Source: Candidatus Versatilivoraceae bacterium (GTDB taxonomy: Bacteria; Acidobacteriota; Terriglobia; Versatilivoradales; Versatilivoraceae). Taken from it: DNA of 64,000 nucleotides. This document shows positions 1-45,409 of the stretch, one piece after another. Where the stretch lies: NCBI GenBank assembly GCA_965197895.1, contig OZ240232.1, forward strand, positions 714,318 to 778,317. The letters run 5' to 3'. The position numbers and the translations under genes were made by a program. Below the pieces are notes generated by a model. The model was given only the letters and a program-made list of their open reading frames with translations. It searched no databases and was not told the origin of the DNA. Position 1 is the stretch's first letter. The number at the start of each line of letters is the position of its first letter.

Positions 1-390
1 AGGCAGACAGGGACGTGCCAGCGCCAGGGGGTGGCGGTGTAGACCAGATCCAGATCCTCCTCGGCACAGAGACGTTCGAAATCACGTTCGCCACGGCTAT
101 AGAGCCTGGGCGCGGGTTGGCCGGCCTTCCGGATGATGGCGCCGGCTCGCTCGGCGTGGGCCACTCGGGTATCGCAAACAGCCGTGACCGCCGCGCCTTC
201 GATTCGCACCAGGTTTCTGATATGGCCTGTGCCCATGCCGCCCACACCGACGAAACCGATGCGGACCGGATTCGTGGACTTATGGCTGGCTCTGGCCGTT
301 TTGCCGACAGCCAGGTTCAATCCGGCGACGGCGCCGGATTTCACGAAGTCTCGACGACCGATGAAAGCACTCGTTGAGGGGGTTTCCATG
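1..390 (-). CDS. Gfo/Idh/MocA-family oxidoreductase, N-terminal part (gene runs off window start); TAT signal
   Basis: Minus-strand translation from ATG at 390: METPSTSAFIGRRDFVKSGAVAGLNLAV... (twin-arginine motif) followed by IGFVGVGGMGTGHIRNL Rossmann motif typical of Gfo/Idh/MocA. The +strand ORF 15..377 in the track is its shadow. Confidence 0.6.
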
Positions 391-803
391 CTCATGCCCT
401 TTCCTTTCACGTCATGCCCGTCAATATTCGGGTCTCTACTTAGCCATGGGGTGTAGCGACTTGCAGATCGATTATATGCCAGGCTGTGAGCCTTCGCTGA
501 GCGGCTGATTGCCTTTGAAAGCCGACCGTAGGGGCTTGGCTGCGAAATTGGACCTGAGCCTACCGCTTCGCTCACGCTGGCTTTGTTAACCACTCTTTTT
601 GTTTCAGGGCTTTACTCCAATCAGGTCCTCGTGGTATTCAACATGATATTCAATGGGAATGGTCAGGGAAAAGGCTTAGCGGTTCTCCAATCTTAAGCGA
701 AGAGCGGCGTCCGTTGGGGACTCACTCGACGAGGACAGGGATCCGTTGGCCACTGAAGGCGGCTGGCCGCTCCTATCGGCCCAAGCAACCACAGGAGGAC
801 AAA

Positions 804-1931: not shown

Positions 1932-2400
1932 GGGTCTCGAGCCTTGACGGCACTCCTCAGGGGAGTAGGGTGGTAGAAGGGTTATCCATGAAGGTCACGA
2001 AGGCACACGAAGGGTTATGGTGATCTTGCCCGCGTATCGGCGAAGCAGGCAAACTATCTCTGAGTGTCCCTTCGTGTCCTTGGTGGATCATTTCACAAAC
2101 CGCCGCCATTCCAACTTGCCGCCGCTGCCAAAGTGGATAAGGATACCCACTTTGTGGAAGAGAATGGGGCTCTGCTGGTGGGTTCAGACACCTCCGGTCC
2201 GGACTGACCCGGCACGCCCCTGAACATCGTGTGGATGCCCGCCAATGCCTCCCGCCCCTGTTTAGGTGGTGGATTTTGGGGCTCTTGGGGTCCTTGCCCC
2301 CAGCCGGTCTACAGGTTAGAATTCGCACATTCGGTTGAGTTGGTTTGGAAAGAGGCTGAGGTCAAAGAAGTCGAATCCCAAGTCGGGAATTGAGGGTCCT

Positions 2401-8452: not shown

Positions 8453-10864
8453 TCAAAATCGAATGCTCCAGGTCCCCGACTCCAGGTACACGTCCAGAGC
8501 GACTCCTTTGAGGTAGTCGTAACAGAAGTAGTTGAGAGCTCCCAAAGCTCCCAGGTCAGAGGGGTCGCGCACGACGGCAGCCCAATGTTCAATAGCGGAT
8601 CTCAGCAAGGCCAAAGCTCTTTCCAGTCTGCGATTGGTTTCGGTGATGTTTTTTTCAAATGAGGGGGCATCCTTGTCGGCTCGGGCGTTCCGGGATTTCT
8701 GGTATGCCCGCCTGGCGCGACGTACTTCCTGCACGGCAGCGATGTAGTCCGTGCCGAAGTTCAACTGCCCCAGGAGCTGTCGGACATAGCTCTTGCCCGG
8801 GGGACGGCTTTTCCTCAGGGCCGATTCCACCAGGGGCGTGGCTTTGAGATAGTGGGCCCGCAGCTCATCCCATCCCGGGTTCGGACCCGAATCGGAATTC
8901 CAGTGCTTGCGCATCATGGTGGTGACCGGAAAGAGAAAACCCATGGCCACCCGGTCTCCGATGAGCGTGGCTTCTTCCAGGATGCGGTAGGCGTTAAGCA
9001 TGTCGGGCACGGCCCCCGGCCCGCACACCTGTTGTACCTGGTCCCGGTAGACGGATTCAGGGGTGAGGTTGGAGGACCAGGAAGCCTGAGCCAGGTAAGC
9101 CGTTCCCGCCTCCAGCTTGGTGACCAGGAACTGCCGGCCGAAGAAGCCGAAAACTTTGTACCGGTCCATCGCCTGGAAAATGCGATGGAGTGGCTGGGTC
9201 GGCAACTGGGGAAGGATGCCGATATTGTCATCTGCCAGCGTAGCCAGGACCGTCACCTTCATGGGACTGCGCTCGGCAAAGGCGAGCATTTCGGTGCGCT
9301 CCGCAGCCAGGGAGGTCAGATAGTCCATGGGGACCATCATCATGACTCGACCGGGGAAAATCTTGGGCATGACCGCATAGAATTCGTCACTGAAGGTGCT
9401 GACCACCACGGCCGCCTCGGGATTAGCCGTTTCCCGGAGAATTTGACCGTCATTGAGAAGCTTATCCAGCGTATCGGCGTTGGCCAGGGCCCCTTTGAGC
9501 TCTTCAACCGGTCGAGTTCCCCGGCGCACGCCAACCGGCAGGGTATTGGTTCTGGCCGATTGCAGCATTTGGTCAAGACTGAACTCGGGTTCGAGCTGAT
9601 ACTTGCGGTTCAAGCGGTCCCACATTTCCCGAAACTTTTCTCCTCCTCCCGGCAGCTCGGGTTGCGTCAGCCCATAGAAGTCGGCTTCCGGATAGGTGTT
9701 GACGTGAGCGCGGATGATGGTCTTATTCAGCTCCATCACGGCCGGATTGTCGGGGGTCATGTAGGGAAAAGCCTGAGGGTCAACCGCATACTCCGAGATT
9801 CCCAGGCGAGCGTTTCGGGCACCCTTCATTGCCTCCTTGGGGAGATATTCTCGATCGGACCATTGGGGAAGCTTCCAATTGAATTCGTTGGTGAACTGGT
9901 TGATTCTAAAGTTCAAGCCGGTTTGCATACCGCGGCGTTTGGCATAGGCAAACAACTCGTGCAAGAGCCCTTGGGCGGCCCTCACCCGTTCCCGGTACGT
10001 CCTGGCTCCGGCCAGTTCCGGGTTCACCAGTTGGCTTCGCCCCCCGAACAGCTCCCTGCCAATGGTTTCTGCATGAATCGGGACCCTCCAGCCATAGTGG
10101 AGGACTCCAGTGACTTTGGGTTGGTCCCTCATTTGGTAGTGAACGAAGGGTTGATGCGGGTAGATCTGCACGTAAAGGACGTTGAACTTCATCTTGGCCA
10201 ACTGATCGATCAGATGCCGGTAGTCCCGCATTCCGTAAAAGATGAGAGAAGTGGCCAGGTTGTTGATGGCACGGTAGGAACGGAATCGGAAACGGGGTTC
10301 CCGGGTCAGGTCCAGTTGCCGGGGCGGGAAGGGCTCCGGGACCTCCGGGAACACGTCCTTCTCCAGCAGGAAACGGACGCCGGCGCGTTCCAACAGCTCG
10401 TAGACCGCCCACAAAGTTGCCGCTGGACTGCCTCCTCCCAGAATGAGCAGCTCCCGGTCTCCGGCGGTCACCCTCCTCAAAACGATGCCTTGGTCGCTGA
10501 GCTGCGGCCAGGCGAAACGGTCAGAGATCTGTTTGAAGGCCGGATTGGTCTCAGGATTTCCGAGGACGATGGTGAGATCGGATCCTATGGCCGGGGTCCG
10601 GATCAGCTCGGCTTGAAGGCCATAGAGCTCTCTCAGGTAGCGGCGCAGTTCGTTGGCGGCAAAGTCTTCCAGTTCCGGTGCTTCAGGCCCTAAAACGATG
10701 GAGCAACGGATGGGCGGGTCTGGGGTTGGGACCGTCTCGGCTCCCAGTTGGGCCGGTGGATTCCCTGTGCTTAGCCAGAAGGCCACCGCCAGCAGGGGAG
10801 ACAGGCACCGTCCCGACCTTCTGATTCTCTGCTGTCTTGGGTTCATCGGGACCTCCAGTGTCAC
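8453..10864 (-). CDS. large secreted glycoside-hydrolase-like protein (family unresolved; DUF4838/GH20-GH67-GH115-like fold suspected)
   Basis: 803 aa with N-terminal signal peptide. Aromatic-rich TIM-barrel-like core. Sits in the glycan-degradation locus. Family assignment is inference only. Confidence 0.4.
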   Translation of the reverse strand: MTLEVPMNPRQQRIRRSGRCLSPLLAVAFWLSTGNPPAQLGAETVPTPDPPIRCSIVLGPEAPELEDFAANELRRYLRELYGLQAELIRTPAIGSDLTIVLGNPETNPAFKQISDRFAWPQLSDQGIVLRRVTAGDRELLILGGGSPAATLWAVYELLERAGVRFLLEKDVFPEVPEPFPPRQLDLTREPRFRFRSYRAINNLATSLIFYGMRDYRHLIDQLAKMKFNVLYVQIYPHQPFVHYQMRDQPKVTGVLHYGWRVPIHAETIGRELFGGRSQLVNPELAGARTYRERVRAAQGLLHELFAYAKRRGMQTGLNFRINQFTNEFNWKLPQWSDREYLPKEAMKGARNARLGISEYAVDPQAFPYMTPDNPAVMELNKTIIRAHVNTYPEADFYGLTQPELPGGGEKFREMWDRLNRKYQLEPEFSLDQMLQSARTNTLPVGVRRGTRPVEELKGALANADTLDKLLNDGQILRETANPEAAVVVSTFSDEFYAVMPKIFPGRVMMMVPMDYLTSLAAERTEMLAFAERSPMKVTVLATLADDNIGILPQLPTQPLHRIFQAMDRYKVFGFFGRQFLVTKLEAGTAYLAQASWSSNLTPESVYRDQVQQVCGPGAVPDMLNAYRILEEATLIGDRVAMGFLFPVTTMMRKHWNSDSGPNPGWDELRAHYLKATPLVESALRKSRPPGKSYVRQLLGQLNFGTDYIAAVQEVRRARRAYQKSRNARADKDAPSFEKNITETNRRLERALALLRSAIEHWAAVVRDPSDLGALGALNYFCYDYLKGVALDVYLESGTWSIRF

Positions 10865-18771: not shown

Positions 18772-19791
18772 ATGGTCGTTCTCCCGGATTCATCCAAGAT
18801 TCTGATCATACGGTATGGCCGATTGGGGGACGTCGTACTCCTGATTCCAGCCGTGCGGGCTCTGCGCCAAAGGTTTCCTTCCGCTCACATCTCGGCTCTG
18901 GTGGATCAGCGATATTCCCCGGTTCTGGAGATGTGTTCCGCCATTGACGCCGTTGTCCCCGTGGACCGCATCGGAATGCGGGATAGTCCTTGGTGGTCAG
19001 GAACTCGAAGCGCTTTTCAATTGGCCGAAGGACTGCGAAGAGCTGAATATGACCTGGTGCTCGATTTTCACGGTTTTCGGGAAACCAACTTGCTGGCCTG
19101 GTACAGTCGGGCCCGTTGGAGGATTGGTCTCAAGAGGACAGAGCCTTCCTACCTGCCCTTCTGCTTTAACTTGGAGCCTGTCGTGGAGAACCAGAACCTG
19201 CATGTGGCCGAGCGGTTTCAATCACTGCTGGAACCCCTAGGGGTCGTCCCGGGGACGCAGGACATCTCTCTTGAGCTTCCCTCCGAGACCACAAGCAAAG
19301 CGGAGGCGTTCCTGCGGGAAGAACAGTTGGCCGGATGTACCGCCCTGATTGGAATGAACCTGGGGGCCAGCGCTGTCGACAAAATGTGGCCGGCTGCAAG
19401 CTTTGCGGCTCTTGCCGACAAACTTGCCCGGCGGTTCGATGTGGGAGTCCTCTTTCTTTGCGGACCCGAAGAAGAAGATCTTCTCAGGCAAGCCGAATCA
19501 GCTCTGGAGACCCATCGTTACGCTCTGGTGGGTCAGCTCGGATTGAAGGACTTGGCGGCGGTGGTCAGCCGGTGTGATTTGCTGGTGAGCAACGACTCCG
19601 GACCGATGCACTTTGGCCCTGCTTTGGGAGTCCCCACCCTGGGTTTGTTTAGTTTGAGCTCTCCCTTGCATTACCGGCCCTTGGGTGAGCACAGCCGTTT
19701 TTTGAGGAAGGTTCCGGTCGGAGAAATCCGGGTGGAGGAAGTCTTTGAGCAGGTCGTGGAAATGATGGGTCTAGTGACCGGTGGCCGGTGA
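18772..19791 (+). CDS. glycosyltransferase family 9 (ADP-heptose:LPS heptosyltransferase-like)
   Basis: KILIIRYGRLGDVVLLIPAVRALRQRFP N-terminus and C-terminal DSGPMHFGPALGVPTLGLF motif typical of GT9. Start chosen at ATG 18772. The last codons (GLVTGGR) are encoded by the first units of the heptamer array. Confidence 0.75.
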   Translation: MVVLPDSSKILIIRYGRLGDVVLLIPAVRALRQRFPSAHISALVDQRYSPVLEMCSAIDAVVPVDRIGMRDSPWWSGTRSAFQLAEGLRRAEYDLVLDFHGFRETNLLAWYSRARWRIGLKRTEPSYLPFCFNLEPVVENQNLHVAERFQSLLEPLGVVPGTQDISLELPSETTSKAEAFLREEQLAGCTALIGMNLGASAVDKMWPAASFAALADKLARRFDVGVLFLCGPEEEDLLRQAESALETHRYALVGQLGLKDLAAVVSRCDLLVSNDSGPMHFGPALGVPTLGLFSLSSPLHYRPLGEHSRFLRKVPVGEIRVEEVFEQVVEMMGLVTGGR

Positions 19792-19927
19792 CCGGTGGCC
19801 AGTGACCGGTGGCCAGTGACCGGTGGCCGGTGACCGGTGGTCAGTGACCGGTGACCAGTGACCGGTGACCAGTGACCGGTGGCCAGTGACCGGTGGCCAG
19901 TGGCCGGTGACCGGCGGCCGGTGGTCA
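19774..19927. repeat. tandem array of ~11 units of 14-bp GTGACCGGTGGCCA (alternating 7-mers GTGACCG/GTGGCCA)
   Basis: Read directly: gtgaccggtggccg gtgaccggtggcca ... with minor unit variants. Ends at ggtggtcAGATCTgtaagg immediately upstream of the four-helix-bundle gene. Confidence 0.9.
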
Positions 19928-19943
19928 GATCTGTAAGGGTTAG

Positions 19944-20333
19944 TTGCGAATGATGAATCCGTTAAAGAGCTATCAGGACTTGGAGGTCTGGAAGAAATCA
20001 ATCGAGCTAGCGGAGAGCGTCTATCAAATCTCTACTCGGTTTCCGCCGGAGGAGAGGTTCGGCGTGACCAGCCAAGTGCGGCGGACAGCAGTGTCGGTAG
20101 CGGCGAACATCGCGGAGGGAGCGGAACGTCACGGGACCGGAGAGTTTCTTCAATTTCTGGGAATCGCTAGCGGGTCGCTAGCGGAGTTGGAGACTATCTT
20201 GATTCTGGTGCATCGACTGCAGATGGTCACCTCCGAGCAGGCTGCCAGGCTGTTGGAACAAGCGGCGGAGGTTGGACGCCTGCTTAACGGCCTCAAGCGT
20301 TCACTGCGATCTAGAATGCGATCTAAAAACTGA
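19944..20333 (+). CDS. four-helix-bundle protein (TIGR02436 / 23S rRNA-intervening-sequence-protein family), copy 1
   Basis: 129 aa: SYQDLEVWKKSIELAESVYQISTRFPPEERFGVTSQVRRTAVSVAANIAEGAERHGTGEFLQFLGIASGSLAELETIL. This is the family consensus (xYxDLxVWQKA ... FxLTSQxRRAAVSIPSNIAEG ... FLxIAxGSLxELxT). Confidence 0.8.
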   Translation: MRMMNPLKSYQDLEVWKKSIELAESVYQISTRFPPEERFGVTSQVRRTAVSVAANIAEGAERHGTGEFLQFLGIASGSLAELETILILVHRLQMVTSEQAARLLEQAAEVGRLLNGLKRSLRSRMRSKN

Positions 20334-20350
20334 ATGGAGAGGACTTCCCC

Positions 20351-20418
20351 AGCCACCAGCCAGTGACCGGTGGCCAGTGACCGGTGGCCAGTGGCCGGTG
20401 ACCGGTGGCCGGTGGTCA
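20351..20418. repeat. second, shorter copy of the GTGACCG/GTGGCCA heptamer array
   Basis: cagccaccagcca gtgaccggtggcca gtgaccggtggcca gtggccggtgaccggtggccggtggtcagatct; part of the 491-bp duplication unit. Confidence 0.85.
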
Positions 20419-20434
20419 GATCTGTAAGGGTTAG

Positions 20435-20824
20435 TTGCGAATGATGAATCCGTTAAAGAGCTATCAGGACTTGGAGGTCTGGAAGAAATCAATCGAGCTA
20501 GCCGAGAGCGTCTATCAAATCTCTACTCGGTTTCCGCCGGAGGAGAGGTTCGGCGTGACCAGCCAAGTGCGGCGGACAGCCGTGTCGGTAGCGGCGAACA
20601 TCGCGGAGGGAGCGGAACGTCACGGGACCGGAGAGTTTCTTCAATTTCTGGGAATCGCTAGCGGGTCGCTAGCGGAGTTGGAGACTATCTTGATTCTGGT
20701 GCATCGACTGCAGATGGTCACCTCCGAGCAGGCTGCCAGGCTGTTGGAACAAGCGGCGGAGGTTGGACGCCTGCTTAACGGCCTCAAGCGTTCACTGCGA
20801 TCTAGAATGCGATCTAAAAACTGA
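20435..20824 (+). CDS. four-helix-bundle protein (TIGR02436 family), copy 2 (protein identical to copy 1)
   Basis: Nucleotide sequence differs from copy 1 at only two synonymous third-codon positions (gcg/gcc, gca/gcc); protein 100% identical. Confidence 0.8.
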   Translation: MRMMNPLKSYQDLEVWKKSIELAESVYQISTRFPPEERFGVTSQVRRTAVSVAANIAEGAERHGTGEFLQFLGIASGSLAELETILILVHRLQMVTSEQAARLLEQAAEVGRLLNGLKRSLRSRMRSKN

Positions 20825-20840
20825 ATGGAGAGGACTTCCC

Positions 20841-20946
20841 CAGCCACCAGCCACCGACCACCGACCACCGACCACCGACCACCGACCACCGACCACCGAC
20901 CACCGACCACCAGCCACCGACCACCGGCCACCGACCACCGGCCACT
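20841..20946. repeat. tandem array of 7-bp CACCGAC (CCACCGA) units, ~13 copies
   Basis: cagccaccagccaccgaccaccgaccaccgacc...; lies between 4HB copy 2 and the stop of the convergent cytochrome b/c gene. Confidence 0.9.
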
Positions 20947-23428: not shown

Positions 23429-24094
23429 ATGTACCAGCAGCACTGCATTCTCGAAACCCTGACCTCGGAGGCGGGAGCGGCGCGGGTGGCGGCCTTGATG
23501 TCGGCGGAGACCTTCCCCAGCCGCACGGCGGCCGGTCGCCGGGTCTGCGAGGCGTTCGGTTTTCGGGATGCCGGGGGTCGCCTGCAGCAGGCAGGCTGCG
23601 TGAAAGCGTTGCGGGTGCTGGAGGCGGCGGGCCGGATTGGGCTGCCGGAACCGCTCAACAGGGGCGGGGGGAGGCAGCCTCGGGATCTGGGGGAAGGGGT
23701 CCCAGCGGCGGAGGGGGTGCCGGAGCGGGTGGAGGCGGTGGAGGGACTGAGGCTGGTGCTGGTGAGGGAGCAGGGGGAGCGGCATCGGTGGAATGGGCTG
23801 ATGGCACGGGAGCATCCGCGAGGGGCGGTGCGGCATGCGGGGGCACAGTTGCGCTATCTGATCGTCTCGGCGCATGGGACTCTGGGAGGGATGGGCTTTG
23901 CGGCCTCGGCGCTGGCGCTGGCGGCGCGGGACCGGTGGATGGGCTGGGAGGAGGCGACTCGGAAGCGGCAGTTGCACCGGGTGGTGGGGATGAGCCGGTT
24001 CCTGATCCGGGAAGGGGTGGAGTGCCGCAACCTGGCCTCGAAGGCGCTGGGGATGGTGCTGGGCCGGTTGGGAGAGGACTTCCAGCAGCGCTAC
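23429..24094 (+). pseudogene. 5' part of the IS4-family transposase gene (DUF4338-like N-domain), interrupted by nested IS
   Basis: ...LRYLIVSAHGTLGGMGFAASALALAARDRWMGWEEATRKRQLHRVVGMSRFLIREG...FQQRY then the insertion. Continues in-frame at 26183 as RYRPVLVETFVD... Confidence 0.6.
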
Positions 24095-26178
24095 CCCATC
24101 TTTAACACAGGAACGGGCGATGGGGGGGATTTTACCCCCATTTTGGCCCAAAACCACCTGTAAGTTGTTGATTCTTCGTAGGAGAAGCTGAAGTAGTGCC
24201 ATAATCGTATGGGAGGGGCTTGACCCCCTCGCCCCCCTCTGTTAGGGTCCCTCCCATGTTCATCCGCCGCACCCAGACCCGCTCCACTCCCTCCGGTCAG
24301 ACCTACTTCACCCACCGCCTCGTCCGCTCCCATCGCCTCTCAGGCAAGGTCCGCCAGCAGACCCTGCTCAACCTCGGTCGCCACTTCTCCATCCCCCGCC
24401 ATGACTGGCCCCTGCTGTGCCGCCGTCTCGACCAGATCCTCAGCGGTCAGTTGCCCTTGATCCAGGAGGGTTCGGCCCCGTTGGAGGAGGAAGCCCAACG
24501 CATGGCCGAGCGCTTGCTCGAGGGGGAAGCCGACGTGACCGGCACCGCTGGGGAGGCCTCTTCAGAAGACCTGCAGACGGTGGCGGTGGATTCGGTGGAG
24601 GTGACCCGTCCGCGCAGCGTCGGGGTGGAGCAGGTGGGCTGCTGGGTGCTGGAGCAGTTGGGGTTGGTGGAGTTGCTGGCCGAGTTGGGTCTGAATGGAC
24701 CGCTGCGGGCGGCGGCGGTGGGGGCGATTGTGGGCCGTCTGGCCCGTCCCGGCTCGGAACGGGCCACCTGGGGCTGGCTCGGCCGGCGCAGCGGCTTGGG
24801 CGAGTTGCTGGACTTTGACTTCCAGACACTGAGCCTGATGCAGATGTATCGGGCTTCAGACGCCCTGATGAGACACCGCCAGGCCATCGAGGCCCACCTG
24901 TTCACCCGGGCCATGGGTCTGTTCGATCTCGAGCCGACCGTCACCCTGTTCGATCTGACCAACACCTTCTTTGAGGGGGCGGCCCGCCGTCAACCCAAGG
25001 CCCAGCGGGGGCACTCGAAGGAGAAGCGCAGTGACTGTCCCCTGCTGACCCTGGGGTTGGTGCTGGACGGGGCCGGGTTTGTGCGCCGCTCGCAGGTCTT
25101 TGCCGGCCGGGTGGATGAGCACCGCACCCTGGCCGGGATGCTGGGGGCGCTCGAGGCGCCCCAGGGGGCCCTGGTGGTGATGGATCGGGGGGTGGCGACC
25201 GAGGATCGCATCGGGTGGTTGAGGGAGGAAGGGTACCGCTATGTGGTGGCCAGCCGCCAAGGCTCCCGGCAGTTCGACCCCGAACTGGCCCTGACCTTGG
25301 AGACCGCTTCCAAGGCCAGGTTACAGCTCCACAAGGAGGTCTCAGAGGACGGGGGGGAAGTGCGTCTCTACTGCCGTTCCGAGGAGCGGGCTCACAAGGA
25401 ACGGGGTATTGTCGAGCGTTTCAGCCGGCGCTTCGAGCAGGGGCTCGCCCGAATCTCCGAGGGGCTCTCACGGCCGCGGGCTCACAAGGGCATCGAGAAG
25501 GTCCGGGAACGGATCGGGCGGCTGAAGGAGCAGAGTCGCGGCGTGGCTCAACACTACACCATCGAGGTCCTCACCGACGAGAGCGGCCGCAAGGCGACGG
25601 CCCTGACCTGGAAGCGTCAGCCCCGCCAGGGCTCGATGGTCACCCATCCGGGGGTCTACTGCCTGCGCAGCAACCAGACCGACTGGGACGAGGAGAGCCT
25701 GTGGCGCACCTACGCCACTCTCACCGACGTGGAAGCGGTGTTTCGCTCCCTGAAGTCCGAGCTGGGCCTGCGCCCCATCTATCATCACAAGCCGGTGCGC
25801 TCGGAAGGCCACCTGTTCCTGACCGTCATCGCCTATCAACTGGTGCAGGTCATCCGCAAACGCCTCAAGCAGCGGGGCGACTCCTCCAGTTGGACCACGC
25901 TGCGGCGCATCCTGGAAGGACAGCAGCGGGTCACGGTGACCTTCCGGCGTGGGGACGGGCGGACCTTGCACGTGCGCAAGGCCACGCGGGCAGAAACTGA
26001 TCAGAAGGCCATCTACGACGCCCTGGGCATCGATCCCGCTCCCGGAGGGGTCCGCAAGATGATCGTCTGATCCCCCCCATATCGCCGGTTTCAACGCGTT
26101 TGTAGTGCCACTTGCGCGTTTCTGCCTTCGTAACCTGTTGATAATAAGCGTGTACTCGGAAGCCGCGTTAAAGATGGG
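24095..26178 (+). mobile_element. IS1634-family insertion sequence nested inside the IS4 transposase gene
   Basis: Perfect 12-bp terminal IRs CCCATCTTTAAC (24095-24106) / GTTAAAGATGGG (26167-26178). Flanking CTAC on both sides (24091-24094 and 26179-26182) is consistent with a 4-bp target-site duplication (TSD). Removing the element restores the in-frame host ORF. Confidence 0.75.
24256..26070 (+). CDS. IS1634-family (IS4 superfamily) DDE transposase
   Basis: 604 aa; motif GHSKEKRSDCPLLTLGL matches the IS1634 GxSKDxRxD signature. DDE region VVMDRGVATEDRIGWLREEGYRYVVASRQ. Confidence 0.75.
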   Translation: MFIRRTQTRSTPSGQTYFTHRLVRSHRLSGKVRQQTLLNLGRHFSIPRHDWPLLCRRLDQILSGQLPLIQEGSAPLEEEAQRMAERLLEGEADVTGTAGEASSEDLQTVAVDSVEVTRPRSVGVEQVGCWVLEQLGLVELLAELGLNGPLRAAAVGAIVGRLARPGSERATWGWLGRRSGLGELLDFDFQTLSLMQMYRASDALMRHRQAIEAHLFTRAMGLFDLEPTVTLFDLTNTFFEGAARRQPKAQRGHSKEKRSDCPLLTLGLVLDGAGFVRRSQVFAGRVDEHRTLAGMLGALEAPQGALVVMDRGVATEDRIGWLREEGYRYVVASRQGSRQFDPELALTLETASKARLQLHKEVSEDGGEVRLYCRSEERAHKERGIVERFSRRFEQGLARISEGLSRPRAHKGIEKVRERIGRLKEQSRGVAQHYTIEVLTDESGRKATALTWKRQPRQGSMVTHPGVYCLRSNQTDWDEESLWRTYATLTDVEAVFRSLKSELGLRPIYHHKPVRSEGHLFLTVIAYQLVQVIRKRLKQRGDSSSWTTLRRILEGQQRVTVTFRRGDGRTLHVRKATRAETDQKAIYDALGIDPAPGGVRKMIV

Positions 26179-40494: not shown

Positions 40495-41261
40495 CAAAAC
40501 CCCTGACGGTGGATCTGGAAGGACGGTGCGCTCTGGTGACGGGAGGTGGAACCGGGATTGGTCGGGCCATCGCCATGGGATTGGCCCGCTGCAGCGCCCG
40601 AGTGGTGGTGAACTATTCCCGGAGTGCAACCGAGGCCCGGGACACCGTCGCCGAGATTATCCGGCAAGGGGGTCAAGCTGTATCGGTTCGAGCCGACGTC
40701 ACCGATGAGGAGCAGGTCAGGCTGGCCATAAGAATGGCGATCCGGACCTATGGGGGGCTGGATATTCTCATGGCCAATGCCGGGGGGCCGACCGAGCAGT
40801 GCCCAACCGCGGCCCTGTCCAGTGAGCGCTGGGACGAAGGATTGAACTTGAATTGCAAGTCGGTCTTCTTTTGTGTCAAGCACGCCATCCCGCTGTTGCC
40901 GGATGGTCACGGTCGTATCCTCATTACCTCGTCAATCAGCGCCCGCAGCGGAGGGGGGCCCGGGACCATAACCTATACGGCTGCTAAAGGAGCCTTGAAC
41001 AATCTCGTGCGGGGATGGGCCAAAGAGCTTGGACCTCGCGGCATTACGGTCAATGCCATCGCGCCGGGCGTGATCTGGACCCGTATCCACCAGCAGCGGA
41101 CCCCGCCGGAGGTCTACCGGGGCCTGATCGATCGAATTCCGCTGGGCCGCGATGGACGGCCGGAGGATTGCGTGGGGGCGGCGCTGTTCCTGGCCAGTCC
41201 GGAAGCTTCCTACGTCACCGGACAGATTCTGGAAGTCAACGGCGGGATGTTGATGCCGTAG
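40491..41261 (+). CDS. SDR-family oxidoreductase (3-oxoacyl-reductase-like)
   Basis: ALVTGGGTGIGRAIA (TGxxxGxG), NAGG, S...YxxxK spacing. ATGA overlap with the upstream aminotransferase. Confidence 0.8.
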   Translation: MTKPLTVDLEGRCALVTGGGTGIGRAIAMGLARCSARVVVNYSRSATEARDTVAEIIRQGGQAVSVRADVTDEEQVRLAIRMAIRTYGGLDILMANAGGPTEQCPTAALSSERWDEGLNLNCKSVFFCVKHAIPLLPDGHGRILITSSISARSGGGPGTITYTAAKGALNNLVRGWAKELGPRGITVNAIAPGVIWTRIHQQRTPPEVYRGLIDRIPLGRDGRPEDCVGAALFLASPEASYVTGQILEVNGGMLMP

Positions 41262-41302
41262 AGGGGATTTCTCACCAAAGGTAGGAATCGTCGACTCTCA
41301 AT

Positions 41303-41385
41303 CCACGAAGGGGATCCACGAAGAGCACGAAGGGGAAAAGAGATATCCACGAAGGGCCACGAAGGACGACGAAGGGCCACTAAGG
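41303..41385 (+). repeat. array A: 7 direct copies of (C)CACGAAGG spaced ~9-13 bp
   Basis: tCCACGAAGGggatCCACGAAGaGCACGAAGGggaaaagagatatCCACGAAGGgCCACGAAGGacGACGAAGGgCCACtAAGGgg. Confidence 0.85.
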
Positions 41386-41581
41386 GGTTGGAGAAGGCTC
41401 AAGAGGGATCCGCCAAAGGTCGGGAAGGGACTGACAAGAAACCCGCAAACGAGAGAGTGGTGGTGACTTGAGGCTCGTTGGTTTCGTGCAATAAATTCTA
41501 GATAGCCGATGGGACACAGTCGGCAGAGAAGGCAAGTGCCTCCGAACCAGACGAACGGTGCACGGCGTAAGGAGTTTTGAA

Positions 41582-41970
41582 ATGGGCAACGGTAGCGAGA
41601 GGCTTGAAGCACTGGCCAAAAAAATAAAACAGGATATCGAAAAAGGAGCGGCACCCAGATCGGAGAAGTTGACAGTCCGCGAGTTTATCGGCTGGTATGG
41701 AAACCGTAGACGAGGATCATGGCTTGTTAAGCATATCCGAAACAAAATGGAGGTATTGAAGCTTCGGACCGTCCCTGATTTCGAGTTCGCATATATTGAT
41801 TCAAGGATTGAGATCAGAACTGCAGATGGTTCACCCTCAGGAGGTCTTGAAGATCCTGTCCATCGTATCGGAACCCTTGCAGCAGCGCACAACAAGCCTA
41901 TGAGAGTTGCTCCGGATGACCGGCTCAAAGTGGCCACAACGAAAATGCAGTTAAATGATTTTTCTCAGCT
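41582..41970 (+). pseudogene. 5' part of a gene encoding N-terminal unknown domain + first CBS motif, interrupted by IS insertion
   Basis: AAGGAG RBS 7 nt before ATG 41582: MGNGSERLEALAKKIKQDIEKGAAPRSEKLTVREFIGWYGNRRRGSWLVKHIRNKMEVLKLRTVPDFEFAYIDSRIEI...KPMRVAPDDRLKVATTKMQLNDFSQL. The last codons of the track ORF (SLLQNS*) are IS inverted-repeat sequence. Confidence 0.6.
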
Positions 41971-43450
41971 GAGCCTTTTGCAAAATTCGTAGTGGAGCAT
42001 GTCATTTTGCTGGCTAACGTGATGTGCCACTCGTGACTACCCGACAGCAAAGGCACTTTTGAACGGAAATGTCCGGATCTGAAGGCCGGATCACAGGCGG
42101 TCGCCGGAAGCAGGCACAGCTTGCCTCATTCCTGCCCTACGGCGGGTGCTCATCCTGCATTGTCCGGGATCCGTCGCGACGGGCTCAAAGCATCAGGCGC
42201 ATCAACTGTTCCACCGTCAGCGCGAGAATGCCGAACATCAGGTGGCACCACACCTTGCCTGGGCCGCGAACCCTCACGTACCGCCCGCCAAACTCGTCCT
42301 TGAGCCGTCCGTTCACCCGCTCCACGGTCGAGCGTTCGCGGTAGCGCCTCGCCTCGGGAGACACTTGGCCGATGCGGCGCTGCGCCAGCGCCTCCCGCTT
42401 TCGTTCCGCTTTCACCTGCGGCCGCCTGCGGGGGTTGAGGTCGATGATCGGCACATGCCCCAGCTTTTGGCTGAAGGCCCGGATCTCCGGCGCGTCATAG
42501 GCGCTGTCCATCAGGTCGTAGAGGCTGTCGACCCGACTCGCGGTCAGCCTCGCCAGCGGGATCGCCGCCTGACTGTCGTGCACCGAGGCTGACGTCAGCA
42601 GGCAACTGACCGGAATGCCGCCGTCGATCGCGTCGATGTGCAGCTTGTAGCCGGTCCAGCTCTCCTGATATCCCTTGGCGTTGCGCTTGACGCCGATGTC
42701 GCAGACCTTCGGCAGGTCCTCCAGCATCTGCTCCAGCGTCATCGACGCCTGCCGCTGCAGACGGCGCGGCTCCTTCGGCCGTGGCTCGTCCTGGCGCGGC
42801 CGACCCCGCCGGCGCTTCGCTTTGGCCGTCGGGGCGGGCTTGGGCGCCGGCGACTCGCGTCCCGGGATCGTGGTCGAGTCCCTCGACACATGGCCCGCCA
42901 GGTGGCCCGCTAGCGTTCTGTCGAGCAGCGCCTCATGCAGGCGCCCCGGCAGGTCGCTGGCGGCAAATTCCGCAAAGGCGCGTGAGAAGGTCGCCTCGCT
43001 CGGCACCCCACCCGCCGCCTCCCAGCCGCACAGGCGGCGCAGCGTAGGTTCCGTCCTCAGCCGCTCCACCAGCCCCCGGGTGGTGGGCACATCCAGCACC
43101 GCCTTCGCCAGAAAGGCCCGCGCCAGCGCCCCACGATCCTTCAGCGGCCGGCCCCGCCAGCCCCCGCTGTAGGGCAGCCACTCCTCCACCCGCACCAGTT
43201 CCAGCACTCGGACGAGCCGCTCGTAGCGCTCGCCGAGGGGACCCAGTGCCTCCTCCAGCCAGGGGAACAGCTCCCGTTGAAACGTGAACCAGTGTCGTGA
43301 TAGGGTTTGTCTAAGGGGCAAGTTGGCTCTCCTTTCATCATGAGGATGGGGTATCTCCATGATACAACAGAGAGCGGACTTGTCCCCTCGATTGACCTAT
43401 TCCCTTACCTTTCCCGACAAAAAATCCCGCTACCTACGGAATTTTGCAAA
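41971..43450 (-). mobile_element. IS5/IS1182-like insertion sequence (1480 bp) with 22-23-bp IRs and 4-bp AGCT target-site duplication (TSD)
   Basis: IR-L GAGCCTTTTGCAAAATTCGTAG (41971-41992); IR-R revcomp of ctacggaattttgcaaaaggctc (43428-43450) = GAGCCTTTTGCAAAATTCCGTAG. AGCT at 41967-41970 and 43451-43454. Excision restores one continuous ORF. Confidence 0.75.
42185..43360 (-). CDS. IS5/IS1182-family DDE transposase
   Basis: 391 aa; DSAYD...IIDLNPRR...YRERSTVERVNGRLKDEFGGRYVRVRGPGKV...HLMFGILALT: C-terminal signature of the IS5/IS1182 group. Confidence 0.7.
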   Translation of the reverse strand: MEIPHPHDERRANLPLRQTLSRHWFTFQRELFPWLEEALGPLGERYERLVRVLELVRVEEWLPYSGGWRGRPLKDRGALARAFLAKAVLDVPTTRGLVERLRTEPTLRRLCGWEAAGGVPSEATFSRAFAEFAASDLPGRLHEALLDRTLAGHLAGHVSRDSTTIPGRESPAPKPAPTAKAKRRRGRPRQDEPRPKEPRRLQRQASMTLEQMLEDLPKVCDIGVKRNAKGYQESWTGYKLHIDAIDGGIPVSCLLTSASVHDSQAAIPLARLTASRVDSLYDLMDSAYDAPEIRAFSQKLGHVPIIDLNPRRRPQVKAERKREALAQRRIGQVSPEARRYRERSTVERVNGRLKDEFGGRYVRVRGPGKVWCHLMFGILALTVEQLMRLML

Positions 43451-43454
43451 AGGC

Positions 43455-44076
43455 TCAGCTACCTGTAATGACGGGCGAACGCACTGTAAAGGGAATCATC
43501 AGCTGGAAATCGATAGGCACGAGCTTCTCATTGGGGGGGCCGTGCGAGTGGGTTCGTGATTGCATGGAAGAATCGGTGGAAGAAATCTCTATTGACGCTC
43601 CTCTTTTTGAGGCTATTGGCTCCACTGCAAAACACGGATACTTGTTAGTGCGAGGCAAAGACAAGGCTGTAACTGGCATAGTGACGGAAACCGACGTTTC
43701 CAAACAGTTCATGCATCTCGCTGGCCCGTTCTTGCTCATCGGCGAAATAGAGGGCCACTTGCGCCAGTTGATTCATGGAAAGTTCACTGTTGAAGAAATG
43801 CAGTTAATATCCGAGGGTGAAGGGGGACAAGGCATTTCCGGTTCGGCAGACCTGACTTTTGGCGGATACTGTCGACTCCTGCAGAATCCAGAGTACTGGG
43901 AAAGGCTGAATCTGGGTGTCGATCGAGGGCAGTTCGTTGAACATCTGGAGTCCGTGAGAAAAATACGGAATGATGTCATGCATTTTGACCCCGATGGTTT
44001 GTCTCCTGAAGATGAAAGGATGTTGCGGGGTGTCGCTCGATTTCTTGAGACTTTGATCAGAAAAGGAGTGAAGTGA
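43455..44076 (+). pseudogene. 3' part of the interrupted gene: second CBS motif + C-terminal HEPN-like domain (Rx4H)
   Basis: After removing the IS and one AGCT, the frame continues ...DFSQLPVMTGERTVKGIISWKSIG...HGYLLVRGKDKAVTGIVTETDV (CBS) ...LTFGGYCRLLQNPEYWERLNLGVDRGQFVEHLESVRKIRNDVMHFDP (R-x4-H HEPN motif). The first 5 codons of the track ORF (MQKAQ) derive from the IS IR. Confidence 0.6.
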
Positions 44077-44265
44077 GAGGCGTACGTGCTGACGACGGTG
44101 GCGTCACGGTGGCGTCAACGTAGCCTTCAGGCAAGGTAGACTCATCATAGTGAAAATCTGCCGCCTCCACGGGGGCTTTCAAGATCAATTACTTGAGACC
44201 AATCCAACAGCTCGTACCGTCCAAAGTTCAGGCTATGCCGGGGGATGTTCCGGGGGACAAATAAT

Positions 44266-44323
44266 GAAGGGGAAAAAAGAAATCCACGAAGGGGCACGAA
44301 GGACCACGAAGGGACACGAAGAG
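44266..44323 (+). repeat. array B: 4 direct copies of CACGAAGG at ~10-bp phase; ~85% identical to the distal part of array A
   Basis: gaaggggaaaaaagaaatCCACGAAGGgGCACGAAGGaCCACGAAGGgaCACGAAGAg; aligns with gaaggggaaaagagatatccacgaagggccacgaaggacgacgaagggccactaagg from array A. Confidence 0.85.
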
Positions 44324-44452
44324 ACTGATTGCTGATTTCTGTTCGTTGATTGGGGAGTTGTGACAACTGATTTTGCCTTAAATCCAAATTCTACAATCCG
44401 AAATTCACGAAACTTGACTCATCTGTCAATGTCGTTTCGACTCAAGAGATCT

Positions 44453-44525
44453 AGCCACTGACCACTAGCCACTAGCCACTAGCCACTGACCACTGACCAC
44501 TAGCCACTAACCACTAACCACCGAC
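44453..44525. repeat. tandem array of ~10 heptamers CACT(G/A)(A/G)C / CACCGAC
   Basis: agCCACTGACCACTAGCCACTAGCCACTAGCCACTGACCACTGACCACTAGCCACTAACCACTAACCACCGAC. Overlaps the last 5 codons and stop (44507) of the minus-strand nitrilase-family gene; preceded by AGATCT. Confidence 0.9.
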
Positions 44526-45409
44526 TTGGCTTCCGTCAGGGCGCCGAAGAGTTCGGGACGTCTTTGGCGCAGGGTGTAGTTGGGTTGGCTGCGCGCTTCC
44601 CAGAGTTTTTCGGGGAGCAAATCGGCGATCAGAACTTCTTCCTGAATCTTCTCGAAGGAGGTTGCGGCAGCCACCTGTCCCAGCGGGTCCATGATCAGAC
44701 AGCCGCCAGCATGGTTAGGTTGGTTGGGGCTGTCCTTGGGGTAGGTGTCGACGATCCCGGCTCTTCCAGCCTGATTGCAGAGCACCGTATAGCAACTGTT
44801 TTCGTAGGCTCGGGCGGAAGCGATCATGTGGAAGTACCGGCCCGAATAGGCGGCCGCCTCTTTCTCCGACTCCGGATCGTCGGTCCACATCTTCAACCGG
44901 GCGGCGTGGGGCATCAGAATGACATCGGCCCCCTTCAGAGCCAGAATCCGGGGGACCTCGGGAAGGGAGTTGTCGTAACAGATGACCGTTCCCACCCGGC
45001 ATTTGCCGATGTCGAAGACGGGCATCTCCGAGCCGCCTTCGTAGTGAATGACCTCGTCCCGGGAGAGGTGAATTTTTCTCTGAGCCCCGATGTAGCCCTT
45101 CGGACCCACCAGAACCTGGGTGTTGTAGACGATATCGTTCTCTTTTTCGCTGAGGCCCACGCTGAGAAAGACATTCAAGGCTTGGGCCAGCAGGCAGAGG
45201 TGTTCGACGCTGCGGCCGTCGGGCACTGCCTCTGCCTGATACCAGGTATTGGGCGCGTTGTGTCCATGCACCACCAACTCGGGGAAGAGGACCAGGTCGG
45301 CGCCCGAATCTTTGGCGCGAGCCGCCCATTGGTCAATGGCACGCAAATTCTTTTCCGTCTGGCCCAGTAACCCGTTCATGGCGACCGCCGCAACTTTCAG
45401 TTTTTGCAT
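44507..45409 (-). CDS. carbon-nitrogen hydrolase (nitrilase superfamily), paralog 2
   Basis: MQKLKVAAVAMNGLLGQTEKNLRAIDQWAARAKDSGADLVLFPELVVHGH..., collinear with 7478..8368. Start chosen at ATG 45409. Confidence 0.8.
   Translation of the reverse strand: MQKLKVAAVAMNGLLGQTEKNLRAIDQWAARAKDSGADLVLFPELVVHGHNAPNTWYQAEAVPDGRSVEHLCLLAQALNVFLSVGLSEKENDIVYNTQVLVGPKGYIGAQRKIHLSRDEVIHYEGGSEMPVFDIGKCRVGTVICYDNSLPEVPRILALKGADVILMPHAARLKMWTDDPESEKEAAAYSGRYFHMIASARAYENSCYTVLCNQAGRAGIVDTYPKDSPNQPNHAGGCLIMDPLGQVAAATSFEKIQEEVLIADLLPEKLWEARSQPNYTLRQRRPELFGALTEAKSVVSG

What the first reader, a model, noticed from the sequence alone, without database searches (positions are those of the whole stretch)
41303..44323. 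A single HEPN-type gene bracketed by ~10-bp-phased CACGAAGG direct-repeat arrays
Two arrays of the octamer CACGAAGG lie in direct orientation, with 7 copies at 41303-41385 and 4 copies at 44284-44323. Units are spaced 9-13 bp, roughly one helical turn. About 55 bp spanning each array are ~85% identical (gaaggggaaaagagatatccacgaagggccacgaagg...). Excluding the IS, the two repeats delimit a ~1.4-kb segment carrying exactly one gene (the CBS-HEPN candidate), ~185 bp from array A and ~190 bp from array B. The segment is visibly A+T-richer than its flanks and sits between conserved metabolic genes. Possible readings: (i) att-like or recombination direct repeats of a small integrated gene cassette; (ii) iteron-like or response-regulator binding arrays; (iii) a previously undescribed cassette type. 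Single-gene cassettes bounded by phased octamer arrays are not a textbook mobile-element architecture.
Basis: seen in the sequence. Interest (0 to 1): 0.75.

Follow-up and report, generated by a model that had tools for sequence, protein, structure and literature searches.

The report
Dispersed octamer repeats beside a defence gene
The two CACGAAGG arrays are real, but they are copies of an intergenic repeat found in many bacterial phyla and do not mark the ends of a gene cassette; the gene between them is a known one-gene anti-phage system (DS-11), here broken by an insertion sequence.

Summary
Array A (41304-41385, 7 units) and array B (44285-44322, 4 units) are direct repeats flanking one low-GC gene.

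The cassette reading does not hold.
1. A third CACGAAGG array sits at 1987-2085 as a hairpin between ordinary metabolic genes.
2. The same arrays occur in over 100 genomes from many phyla, beside unrelated genes.
3. Array B is missing from the seven other sequenced versions of this locus that keep the gene and have readable downstream DNA. Distant homologues of the gene have no arrays.

The gene is DS-11, a validated CBS+HEPN one-protein anti-phage system. It is split here by an IS5/IS1182-type element, and by a different IS in a sister strain.

A closer relative has an empty site (SDR, 143 bp, CN-hydrolase). The gene's synonymous sites are also far more similar between lineages than those of its neighbours.

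Unexpected lead: in their complete form these arrays are inverted pairs enclosing a small GxxExxY/PDDEXK_3 nuclease gene. Both arms switch unit type together (CACGAAG, CACAGAG, CGCAGAG and others). This resembles the REPIN/RAYT relationship. I found no description of it in Rfam or in the papers searched.

The parts
41304..41385 (+). Array A: 7 CACGAAGG-type units, mostly 10-bp period. A solo (one-armed) copy of the dispersed repeat, at the left edge of the accessory block.
   Evidence: Present with 3-7 units in every related locus read that carries the gene. No secondary structure of its own (z = -0.6).
41336..41430 (+). About 95-bp module (leader, units and 3' tail GGTTGGAGAAGGCTCAAGAGGGATCCGCC). 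It recurs at a non-homologous locus in a Candidatus Versatilivorator genome.
   Evidence: 94% identity to L061 5591-5685(-), which lies between an HpcH aldolase gene and a SnoaL_3 gene.
41582..41970 (+). DS-11 (CBS+HEPN anti-phage gene), 5' part, up to the IS insertion point.
   Evidence: The restored ORF is 334 aa. Pfam CBS. NCBIfam NF053863 DS11_antiphage, E = 4.6e-102.
41971..43460 (-). IS5/IS1182-type insertion sequence. Transposase ORF 42185-43360, terminal inverted repeats GAGCCTTTTGCAAAATTCG, 4-bp AGCT duplication. It splits DS-11.
   Evidence: The site is empty in the 99.4%-identical contig L001.
43461..44076 (+). DS-11, 3' part, with the R299-N-D-V-M-H304 (Rx4H) HEPN motif.
   Evidence: R299, N300 and H304 invariant in 42 homologues. 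The C-terminal region is all-helical in the AF2 model.
44266..44322 (+). Array B: leader GAAGGGGAAAAAAGAAATC plus 4 units. A lineage-specific extra copy of the module, in the variable slot downstream of DS-11.
   Evidence: Absent from the same slot in L122, L124, L210, L211, L212 and L215. Unstructured (z = +0.65).
44451..44521 (+). Heptamer array (CCACTGA/CCACTAG/CCACTAA), about 10 units. It is the conserved right edge of the accessory block and abuts the CN-hydrolase stop.
   Evidence: Shorter versions sit at the same edge in L122, L124, L210, L212 and L215. Homology with the empty site resumes at 44524.
1987..2085 (.). Third CACGAAGG element in the window, in its complete hairpin form: 3 units (+), a 55-nt spacer, then 2 units (-). 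It lies between a BNR sialidase-like gene and a glucose/sorbosone dehydrogenase gene.
   Evidence: Folding gives dG = -56.2 kcal/mol, z = -5.7.

Best explanation
Arrays A and B are solo arms of a widespread class of dispersed intergenic repeats. The arms are built from tandem 9-10-bp units, here CACGAAGG.

**The complete element.** It is an inverted pair of arrays: 5'-(CACGAAG-N1-3)x3 ... (N1-3-CTTCGTG)x3-3'. The pair forms a long hairpin. In many bacteria it encloses a small GxxExxY/PDDEXK_3 nuclease gene of about 123 aa. Gene-less hairpins and single arms are scattered between ordinary genes.

**In this lineage.** In this acidobacterial lineage (Versatilivorator-like), a 60-95-bp one-armed module has been copied to several intergenic sites.
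- Array A lies at the left edge of an accessory block that occupies a variable hotspot between an SDR gene and a CN-hydrolase gene. The block carries the one-gene anti-phage system DS-11 (CBS sensor plus HEPN RNase).
- Array B is a later, strain-specific copy in the variable slot downstream of DS-11.
- The bracketing of one gene is therefore a coincidence of two independent copies, not a cassette architecture.

**Shown:** dispersal, polymorphism, arm polarity, arm co-variation, the association with PDDEXK_3, the empty site, and lateral exchange of the DS-11 block.

**Inferred:**
- The units are binding sites or ends used by the associated nuclease, or they form an RNA stem that insulates the inserted gene.
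- Solo arms are decayed or non-autonomous derivatives.
- The two 55-bp direct copies can recombine, by gene conversion or by deleting DS-11.
For: **Dispersal**
- A third array lies in the window between unrelated metabolic genes.
- 94 of 121 arrays are intergenic on a crude ORF map.
- The 104 array-adjacent ORFs hit 140 Pfam families.
- There are 116 three-unit hits in IMG/VR, against well under one by my rough estimate, which assumed about 60 Gb for that collection.

**Polarity of paired arms**
- 26 '+ then -' against 0 '- then +' in genomes.
- 13 against 0 in viral contigs.

**Link to PDDEXK_3**
- All 4 PDDEXK_3 genes in the array loci abut arrays.
- In an unbiased set of 80 PDDEXK_3 loci, 11 of the 13 closest relatives have '[+ arm] gene [- arm]' CACGAAG arrays.
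- At least 50 of 75 loci have flanking inverted arrays.
- 47 of 78 have a repeated CNCNNNG heptamer on both sides. In 38 of those the two sides carry the same one of seven recurring heptamers.

**This locus**
- Array B is absent in sister loci.
- There is an empty site in L209.
- The module recurs at an unrelated locus in L061 at 94% identity.
- L001's array A matches the window's array B better than the window's array A does.

**Gene identity:**
Against: - No PDDEXK_3 gene lies in the window or in 697 kb of array-bearing viral contigs. A partner nuclease for this host is therefore unproven.
- No target-site duplication was evident around the PDDEXK_3 elements, so transposition is not shown.
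- Array A is present in every genome that has DS-11 at this slot and is missing from the empty site. Its upstream region is 95-96% conserved. A role in DS-11 expression or in acquiring the block cannot be excluded.
- Part of the 120 genome hits must be chance two-unit matches; by my rough arithmetic about 1,400 are expected in 596 Gb.
Confidence: 0.72

Rival explanations
1. Cassette boundaries: A and B are att-like or recombination direct repeats that delimit a mobile single-gene cassette.
For: - Two roughly 85%-identical direct modules flank exactly one low-GC gene.
- The block is absent from a close relative and has been laterally exchanged.
- Array A is always at the block's left edge.
Against: - Array B is missing from the seven other versions of the locus that keep the gene and have readable downstream DNA. 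The conserved right edge is a heptamer array 130 bp beyond B.
- The region highly similar between lineages ends about 25 bp after the stop codon, well before B.
- All nine close homologue loci sit in the same slot, so there is no sign of movement to new sites.
- Distant DS-11 genes have no arrays.
- The arrays are dispersed next to unrelated genes.
Confidence: 0.06
2. Regulatory array: array A is a phased set of binding sites for a transcription factor (for example an OmpR/PhoB-type response regulator) that controls DS-11.
For: - 10-bp phasing.
- It sits about 85-190 bp upstream of a hand-read TTGAGG-N17-ATAAAT element at about 41468-41497.
- It is conserved upstream of DS-11 in all related loci read.
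- The upstream non-coding DNA is 95-96% identical between lineages.
Against: - The same units occur as hairpins and arms between unrelated genes in many phyla, after stop codons and between convergent genes.
- Unit number varies from 3 to 7 among near relatives.
- In other strains array A is interrupted by an IS (L123) and by a group II intron (L122), with the gene left intact.
- Array B lies downstream of the gene.
- The consensus promoter scan found nothing on the + strand.
Confidence: 0.12
3. RNA-level element: the arrays act in transcripts as processing, stabilising or terminating stems, as in the ORF-containing intervening sequences of 23S rRNA that RNase III cuts out.
For: - The complete form is a very stable hairpin (dG -56 kcal/mol, z = -5.7).
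- Arms co-vary.
- PDDEXK_3 ORFs sit exactly inside the stem, 0-25 nt from each arm, often inside operons such as between two ABC ATPase genes in L017.
- A 23S_rRNA_IVP-family gene pair in this window is likewise flanked by inverted short-unit arrays.
Against: - Arrays A and B are single arms with no predicted structure (z = -0.6 and +0.65), so this cannot be their present function.
- The strand bias of solo arms relative to flanking genes is weak (16 against 7).
- There is no Rfam family and no terminator-like T tract.
- An inverted DNA repeat is expected for transposon ends too.
Confidence: 0.1

Closest known systems
REP/REPIN elements and their RAYT transposases (PMC3116915, PMC3337134)
   Same: - Short intergenic repeats at many sites in a genome.
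- The functional unit is an inverted pair that forms a hairpin.
- The associated protein gene is itself flanked by the repeats in inverted orientation.
- The repeat sequence co-varies with the protein subfamily.
- Singlets (solo arms) occur as decay products.
   Different: - The arms are tandem arrays of 3 or more 9-10-bp units, not a single 20-40-bp palindrome with a GTAG/CGTC tag.
- The associated gene is a roughly 123-aa PD-(D/E)XK (GxxExxY, PF13366) protein, not an IS200/IS605-type tyrosine transposase.
- The gene sits inside the hairpin loop.
- The same unit sequence is shared across phyla.
- Mobility is not demonstrated.
DS-11, a one-protein CBS+HEPN anti-phage system (DefensePredictor, PMC13092281; NCBIfam NF053863)
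   Same: - The restored 334-aa protein matches the equivalog model over 293 residues, above its cutoff.
- It has a CBS pair followed by a helical domain with an invariant Rx4H.
- It is a solitary gene, about 10% lower in GC than its surroundings.
   Different: - Here it is a pseudogene, split by an IS at codon 130; a second IS splits it in the sister strain.
- It has an extra N-terminal domain of about 110 aa with no assignment.
- The host is an uncultured acidobacterium rather than E. coli.
Integron gene cassettes with attC sites
   Same: Single, often promoterless accessory genes separated by imperfect palindromes. Some array-rich contigs (L027) look superficially like this.
   Different: - No R''/L''-L'/R' core sites (RYYYAAC...GTTRRRY).
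- A and B are direct and non-palindromic.
- The arrays lie between housekeeping genes in operons.
- No integrase was seen next to them.
ORF-containing 23S rRNA intervening sequences / four-helix-bundle (PF05635) genes, and cyanobacterial STRR heptamer arrays (from memory: Mazel et al. 1990)
   Same: A small non-essential ORF is enclosed by inverted repeats. The window's own PF05635 gene pair (19944-20824) is flanked by inverted heptamer arrays. The heptamer TGACCAC resembles STRR2 TGACCAA.
   Different: - The location is intergenic, not inside rRNA.
- The units are 8-10 nt (CACGAAGG) rather than heptamers.
- The association with STRRs rests on memory and was not tested.

Membership tests
DS-11 (CBS+HEPN one-protein anti-phage system) | Match to the curated equivalog model NF053863 above its cutoff | tested here: met
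   E = 4.6e-102, 341.2 bits against a cutoff of 260; residues 33-325 cover model positions 1-305 of 305.
DS-11 (CBS+HEPN one-protein anti-phage system) | CBS pair | tested here: met
   Pfam CBS, 2 stretches. The profile hits PDB CBS proteins. The AF2 model superposes on CBS pairs with target-normalised TM about 0.8.
DS-11 (CBS+HEPN one-protein anti-phage system) | HEPN domain with a catalytic Rx4-6H motif | tested here: met
   R299-N-D-V-M-H304. R299, N300 and H304 are invariant in 42 homologues. The C-terminal region is all-helical. There was no Pfam HEPN hit and no HEPN among the top 50 listed PDB fold matches, so the fold assignment rests on the motif, the NCBIfam model and PMC13092281.
DS-11 (CBS+HEPN one-protein anti-phage system) | Intact gene that confers phage resistance | tested here: not met
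   The ORF is interrupted by an IS at 41971-43460. Defence activity cannot be tested here. Intact orthologues exist in L122, L124 and others.
REPIN/RAYT system | Dispersed intergenic repeat whose functional form is an inverted doublet forming a hairpin | tested here: met
   Window 1987-2085. 26 inverted pairs in genomes and 13 in viral contigs, all with the same polarity.
REPIN/RAYT system | Associated IS200/IS605-type tyrosine transposase (RAYT) flanked by the repeats | tested here: not met
   The flanked gene is PF13366/TIGR04256, a PD-(D/E)XK-fold protein. No RAYT was seen.
REPIN/RAYT system | REP unit of 20-40 bp with a conserved GTAG or CGTC tag | tested here: not met
   The arms are tandem 9-10-bp CACGAAG units with outer CAC...GTG.
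Integron cassette / attC | attC imperfect palindrome with RYYYAAC ... GTTRRRY core sites at the cassette end | tested here: not met
   A and B are direct purine-rich arrays without a partner arm or structure. Reading the sequence shows no core sites.
Integron cassette / attC | IntI integrase and attI nearby | not tested
   The whole window was not screened for integrases. The genes within 10 kb are metabolic.
Iterons of a plasmid or phage replication origin | Array next to a rep/initiator gene in a replicon origin | tested here: not met
   The flanks are chromosomal SDR, aminotransferase, CN-hydrolase and aldo-keto reductase genes, conserved in synteny in ten related loci.
TIR transposon / MITE | Terminal inverted repeats plus a target-site duplication | tested here: inconclusive
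   The PDDEXK_3 elements and hairpins have 25-36-bp inverted arms, but no consistent duplication was visible outside the arms. A and B have no partner arm.

The most novel reading that the evidence does not exclude
Small GxxExxY/PDDEXK_3 nuclease genes enclosed by inverted arrays of tandem 9-10-bp units form an undescribed, cross-phylum family of selfish or domesticated elements. The unit type co-varies between the two arms and, loosely, with protein similarity to the query. Gene-less hairpins and solo arms, including arrays A and B and the 1987-2085 hairpin here, would be their non-autonomous derivatives. This would be a PD-(D/E)XK analogue of the REPIN/RAYT system. Array A may also have served as the entry point through which the DS-11 block was acquired at this hotspot.
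Probability: 0.35. Interest if true: 0.75.

Novelty: new variant of a known kind. Interest (0 to 1): 0.45.

Why it matters
For the finding as written, the result is deflationary. There is no new cassette type. The gene is a known defence system that has been inactivated twice by IS elements, in an ordinary variable hotspot.

The follow-up has more value in three ways.
1. It identifies a very widespread class of intergenic repeats (tandem CAC-purine-rich units forming polar inverted arrays). I found no description of it in Rfam or in the papers searched.
2. It links this class to one of the most abundant uncharacterised small nuclease families, GxxExxY/PF13366. That gives the family a testable role: binding or cutting its own flanking arrays.
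3. It offers a second, independent example of a repeat-plus-enzyme partnership like REPIN/RAYT. It may also help explain short tandem-unit arrays seen in many environmental genomes.

Tried and rejected
- **Rfam.** Whole window at gathering threshold, array regions at E<=1, and six PDDEXK_3/array loci at E<=0.1. No family matched; the only hits were a spurious plant miRNA-precursor hairpin and a weak RAGATH-32 match inside the IS.
- **tRNA genes as integration targets.** None in the window.
- **PADLOC-DB 2023.** No hit for the gene. The family was only added to NCBIfam later.
- **Literature.** Searches for the octamer returned only primers. Searches for 15-16-mers of the arrays returned nothing. 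GxxExxY/PDDEXK_3/PF13366 appear only in a superfamily table and one passing mention.
- **DnaA-box cluster idea** (some units read TTATCCACG/TTATCCACA). Rejected: most copies start CACCAC or AACCAC, the arrangement is a hairpin, and there is no origin context.
- **CsrA/GGA-motif sponge idea.** Rejected: GGA is present only when the spacer happens to start with A.
- **attC idea.** Rejected (see membership test).
- **Promoter and terminator scans** of 41200-44600 found nothing relevant.
- **Strand bias of solo arms** relative to neighbouring genes was 16 against 7, too weak to use.
- **Target-site duplications** around PDDEXK_3 elements were not evident.
- **Fold search** of the full-length model returned only CBS pairs, so it did not independently confirm HEPN.
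- **PDDEXK_3 genes** in the window and in array-bearing viral contigs: none.
Full report
**1. The observation**

The octamer CACGAAGG occurs 12 times in the window against 2.8 expected. Eleven units, allowing one mismatch, form two + strand arrays.
- Array A spans 41304-41385 with 7 units, spaced 13, 9, 22, 10, 10, 10 bp.
- Array B spans 44285-44322 with 4 units, spaced 10, 10, 10 bp.

A module of about 55-60 bp, made of a leader plus units, is shared by A and B.

Between the arrays lies one gene, interrupted by an insertion sequence.
- The IS occupies 41971-43460. It has terminal inverted repeats GAGCCTTTTGCAAAATTCG, a 4-bp AGCT duplication, and a DDE_Tnp_1/DUF772 transposase of IS5/IS1182 type.
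- Removing the IS restores a 334-aa ORF.
- The restored segment is 1531 bp with GC 0.51, against 0.595 for the window.

It missed two things.
- A third CACGAAGG element at 1987-2085 has 3 units on the + strand, a 55-nt spacer, then 2 units on the - strand. It folds into a hairpin of -56 kcal/mol, z = -5.7. It lies between a BNR sialidase-like gene and a glucose/sorbosone dehydrogenase gene.
- A heptamer array (CCACTRR)n sits at 44451-44521.

**2. The gene**

- The restored protein has a CBS pair.
- Its C-terminal domain is helical. R299-x4-H304 is invariant across 42 homologues.
- It matches the NCBIfam equivalog NF053863, 'DS11_antiphage, CBS domain-containing anti-phage protein', at 341 bits against a cutoff of 260.
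- DS-11 is a one-protein CBS+HEPN system validated experimentally in the DefensePredictor study. There, mutations in the CBS adenine contact and in the HEPN catalytic residues abolished defence (PMC13092281).
- The family is large: 2355 homologues at E<1e-10.
- The gene is typically solitary and about 10% lower in GC than its surroundings.

In the window it is a pseudogene. In the 99.4%-identical metagenome contig L001 the window's IS is absent. There a different IS, a copy of window 24092-26178, is inserted at the position equivalent to about 43648. That makes two independent inactivations.

**3. The locus in relatives**

I examined nine further loci carrying a close DS-11 homologue (82-92% amino-acid identity; L122, L123, L124, L210-L215). 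All are in the same slot, SDR then DS-11 then CN-hydrolase. The intergenic DNA of L213 and L214 was not read; they carry the same called genes as L212.
- Array A is present in every locus I read, immediately after the SDR stop, with 3 to 7 units.
- In L122 an ORF-less group II intron is inserted inside array A (Rfam RF02003 at 84 bits, RF00029 at 41 bits).
- In L123 an ISAZ013-type IS is inserted inside array A.
- Array B is found only in the window and L001.
- The slot downstream of DS-11 is variable. It holds a roughly 250-bp MITE with the same ends as the window's IS (L122, L124), a DUF29 gene (L210), a NYN gene (L215), or a 70-aa ORF (L212-L214).
- The conserved right edge of the block is the short heptamer array next to the CN-hydrolase stop.
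- L209 has flanks closer to the window (85-88% nucleotide identity) than those of L122/L124 (82-83%). It carries SDR, 143 bp, CN-hydrolase, with neither the gene nor any array. This is an empty site.
- Identity at 4-fold degenerate sites between the window and L122/L124/L123 is 0.87-0.92 for DS-11 but 0.60-0.76 for the four flanking genes. The non-coding 200 bp upstream of DS-11 is 95-96% identical.

The block is therefore accessory and has been exchanged among lineages more recently than its neighbours diverged.

DS-11 homologues at 55-60% identity, in three unrelated genomes, have no CACGAAGG arrays.

**4. What the arrays are**

*Distribution.*
Some of these must be chance; by my rough arithmetic about 1,400 two-unit matches are expected in 596 Gb.
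- Many are multi-unit arrays, from Acidobacteriota, Desulfobacterota/Binatia, Chloroflexota, Planctomycetota, Verrucomicrobiota, Gemmatimonadota, Bacteroidota and others.
- A three-unit pattern gave 116 hits in IMG/VR, against well under one by my rough estimate, which assumed about 60 Gb for that collection.

*Form.*
- The arrays are mostly intergenic: 94 of 121 on a crude ORF map.
- The unit period is 9 bp (139 cases) or 10 bp (64 cases).
- The 104 adjacent ORFs hit 140 different Pfam families, so they are ordinary genes.
- When two arms are paired, the order is always CACGAAG arm first and CTTCGTG arm second: 26 to 0 in genomes and 13 to 0 in viral contigs. Gaps between arms are 12-400 bp.

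*In this lineage.* The 95 bp at 41336-41430 recur at 94% identity at a non-homologous site in a Candidatus Versatilivorator genome (Acidobacteriota), between an HpcH aldolase gene and a SnoaL_3 gene. The arrays thus belong to a dispersed repeat family, with a lineage-specific one-armed module.

**5. An unexpected association**

The only recurrent special family next to arrays was PF13366/TIGR04256 (PDDEXK_3, 'GxxExxY protein'), in 4 of 104 adjacent ORFs. In each case the gene, of roughly 123-139 aa, abuts an array. In L056 and L017 it lies between arms; in L056 the gaps are 0 and 6 bp. In L017 it is inserted between two ABC-ATPase genes.

I then ran the reverse test, which is not biased by the arrays. 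A metagenome scan for relatives of these proteins returned 80 loci.
- 11 of the 13 closest relatives carry '[+ arm] gene [- arm]' CACGAAG arrays.
- At least 50 of 75 loci have significant flanking inverted arrays of tandem units.
- 47 of 78 have a repeated C-N-C-N-N-N-G heptamer on both sides.
- In 38 of those the same type appears on both sides in inverted orientation. The types are CACAGAG, CACGAAG, CGCAGAG, CACGGAG, CGCAAAG and CGCGGAG, plus two elements that carry CTCTGTG on both sides (the reverse complement of CACAGAG).
- Three loci with the same host context (histidine kinase then response regulator) carry either CACGAAG/CTTCGTG or CACGGAG/CTCCGTG arms. This is a compensatory switch in both arms.

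The stereotyped element is tCAC-(CAC[GA][AG]AG-N1-2)x3, then 5-25 nt, the ORF, 2-10 nt, then (N1-2-CT[TC][CT]GTG)x3-GTGa.

The architecture parallels REPIN/RAYT systems (PMC3116915, PMC3337134), with a PD-(D/E)XK protein in place of a tyrosine transposase and tandem-unit arms in place of REP palindromes.

I found no Rfam family and no paper describing it.

The window offers a sibling case. Two tandem copies of a 23S_rRNA_IVP/four-helix-bundle gene (19944-20333 and 20435-20824) are flanked by inverted heptamer arrays.

**6. Mechanism and its limits**

*Shown:*
- dispersal of the repeat;
- fixed polarity of paired arms;
- co-variation between arms;
- the association with GxxExxY genes;
- gain or loss of a solo module (array B) between close relatives;
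- sequence exchange between copies, since L001's array A matches the window's array B better than the window's array A does.

*Inferred:* the units are recognition sites or ends for the nuclease, or they form an RNA stem that insulates the inserted ORF in the manner of an rRNA intervening sequence. Solo arms such as A and B would then be non-autonomous or decayed derivatives.

A and B have no structure of their own. No partner nuclease gene is in the window. No target duplication was seen. Mobility therefore remains unproven.

Array A travels with the DS-11 block and sits at its very edge. A role in DS-11 regulation or in acquisition of the block cannot be excluded, and I keep both as minority rivals.

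**7. Verdict**

The gene is already known (DS-11). The arrays are a new variant of dispersed REP-like repeats. The link to GxxExxY nucleases is the part worth following up.

Noticed in passing
window 19773-20945: Two tandem, near-identical copies of a 129-aa 23S_rRNA_IVP/four-helix-bundle gene (19944-20333 and 20435-20824; PF05635, TIGR02436). They are part of a 491-bp tandem duplication. On the left they are flanked by (GGCCAGTGACCGGT)n arrays and on the right by (CCACCGA)n, in inverted relation. They lie between a heptosyltransferase gene and a cytochrome b-type gene. This is a second small-gene family enclosed by short-unit arrays.
   Followed up: partly
L122 6790-7680 (orthologue of window ~41312): An ORF-less group II intron of about 880 nt (RF02003 at 84 bits, RF00029 at 41 bits) is inserted in the + orientation inside array A of a sister genome, right after the first CACGAAGG unit.
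   Followed up: partly
window 24092-26178 and L001 8016-10103: A 2.1-kb IS (604-aa DDE_Tnp_1 transposase) present elsewhere in the window is inserted in the DS-11 gene of the 99.4%-identical strain L001. That strain lacks the window's own IS. This makes two independent knock-outs of the same defence gene.
   Followed up: yes
L122/L124 ~9139-9390; L210/L211 downstream of DS-11; L123 9059-10554: The IS family that splits DS-11 in the window repeatedly targets this locus. There is a full copy (91% identical) 70 bp after the DS-11 stop in L123, and MITE-like derivatives of about 250 bp with the same terminal repeats in L122, L124 and L210/L211.
   Followed up: partly
window 41582-44076 vs L122/L123/L124: DS-11 has 87-92% identical 4-fold degenerate sites between lineages whose flanking genes have 60-76%. 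The closest relative by flanks (L209) lacks the gene. The defence block has been exchanged laterally within this hotspot.
   Followed up: yes
window 44451-44521: The heptamer array (CCACTGA/CCACTAG/CCACTAA)n overlaps the 3' end of the CN-hydrolase ORF call and marks the right edge of the accessory block. Read as (TGACCAC)n it resembles the cyanobacterial STRR2 heptamer TGACCAA (from memory, not tested).
   Followed up: no
L137, L138, L139 (metagenome contigs): The same host context (histidine kinase gene, PDDEXK_3 element, response regulator gene) carries CACGAAG/CTTCGTG arms in two contigs and CACGGAG/CTCCGTG arms in the third. Both arms changed together.
   Followed up: partly
L251/L293 (IMGVR_UViG_3300038701_003367) and other IMG/VR contigs: Some putative viral contigs carry many three-unit CACGAAG arms, at least 9 in 39 kb, all on one strand, with no PDDEXK_3 gene detectable in 697 kb of such loci.
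   Followed up: partly
L001 7180-7250 vs window 44262-44330 and 41322-41390: Array A of the sister strain matches the window's array B better than the window's array A at four positions (GGGGCACGAAGGACCACGAAGGGACACGAAG). This suggests gene conversion between the two direct copies.
   Followed up: partly
L027 (Balneolaceae contig, 1-4100): Five small genes on one strand (PDDEXK_3, SnoaL, cupin, DUF4440 and an unknown) are separated by CACGAAG-type arms in almost every spacer. The layout looks superficially like an integron cassette array.
   Followed up: no
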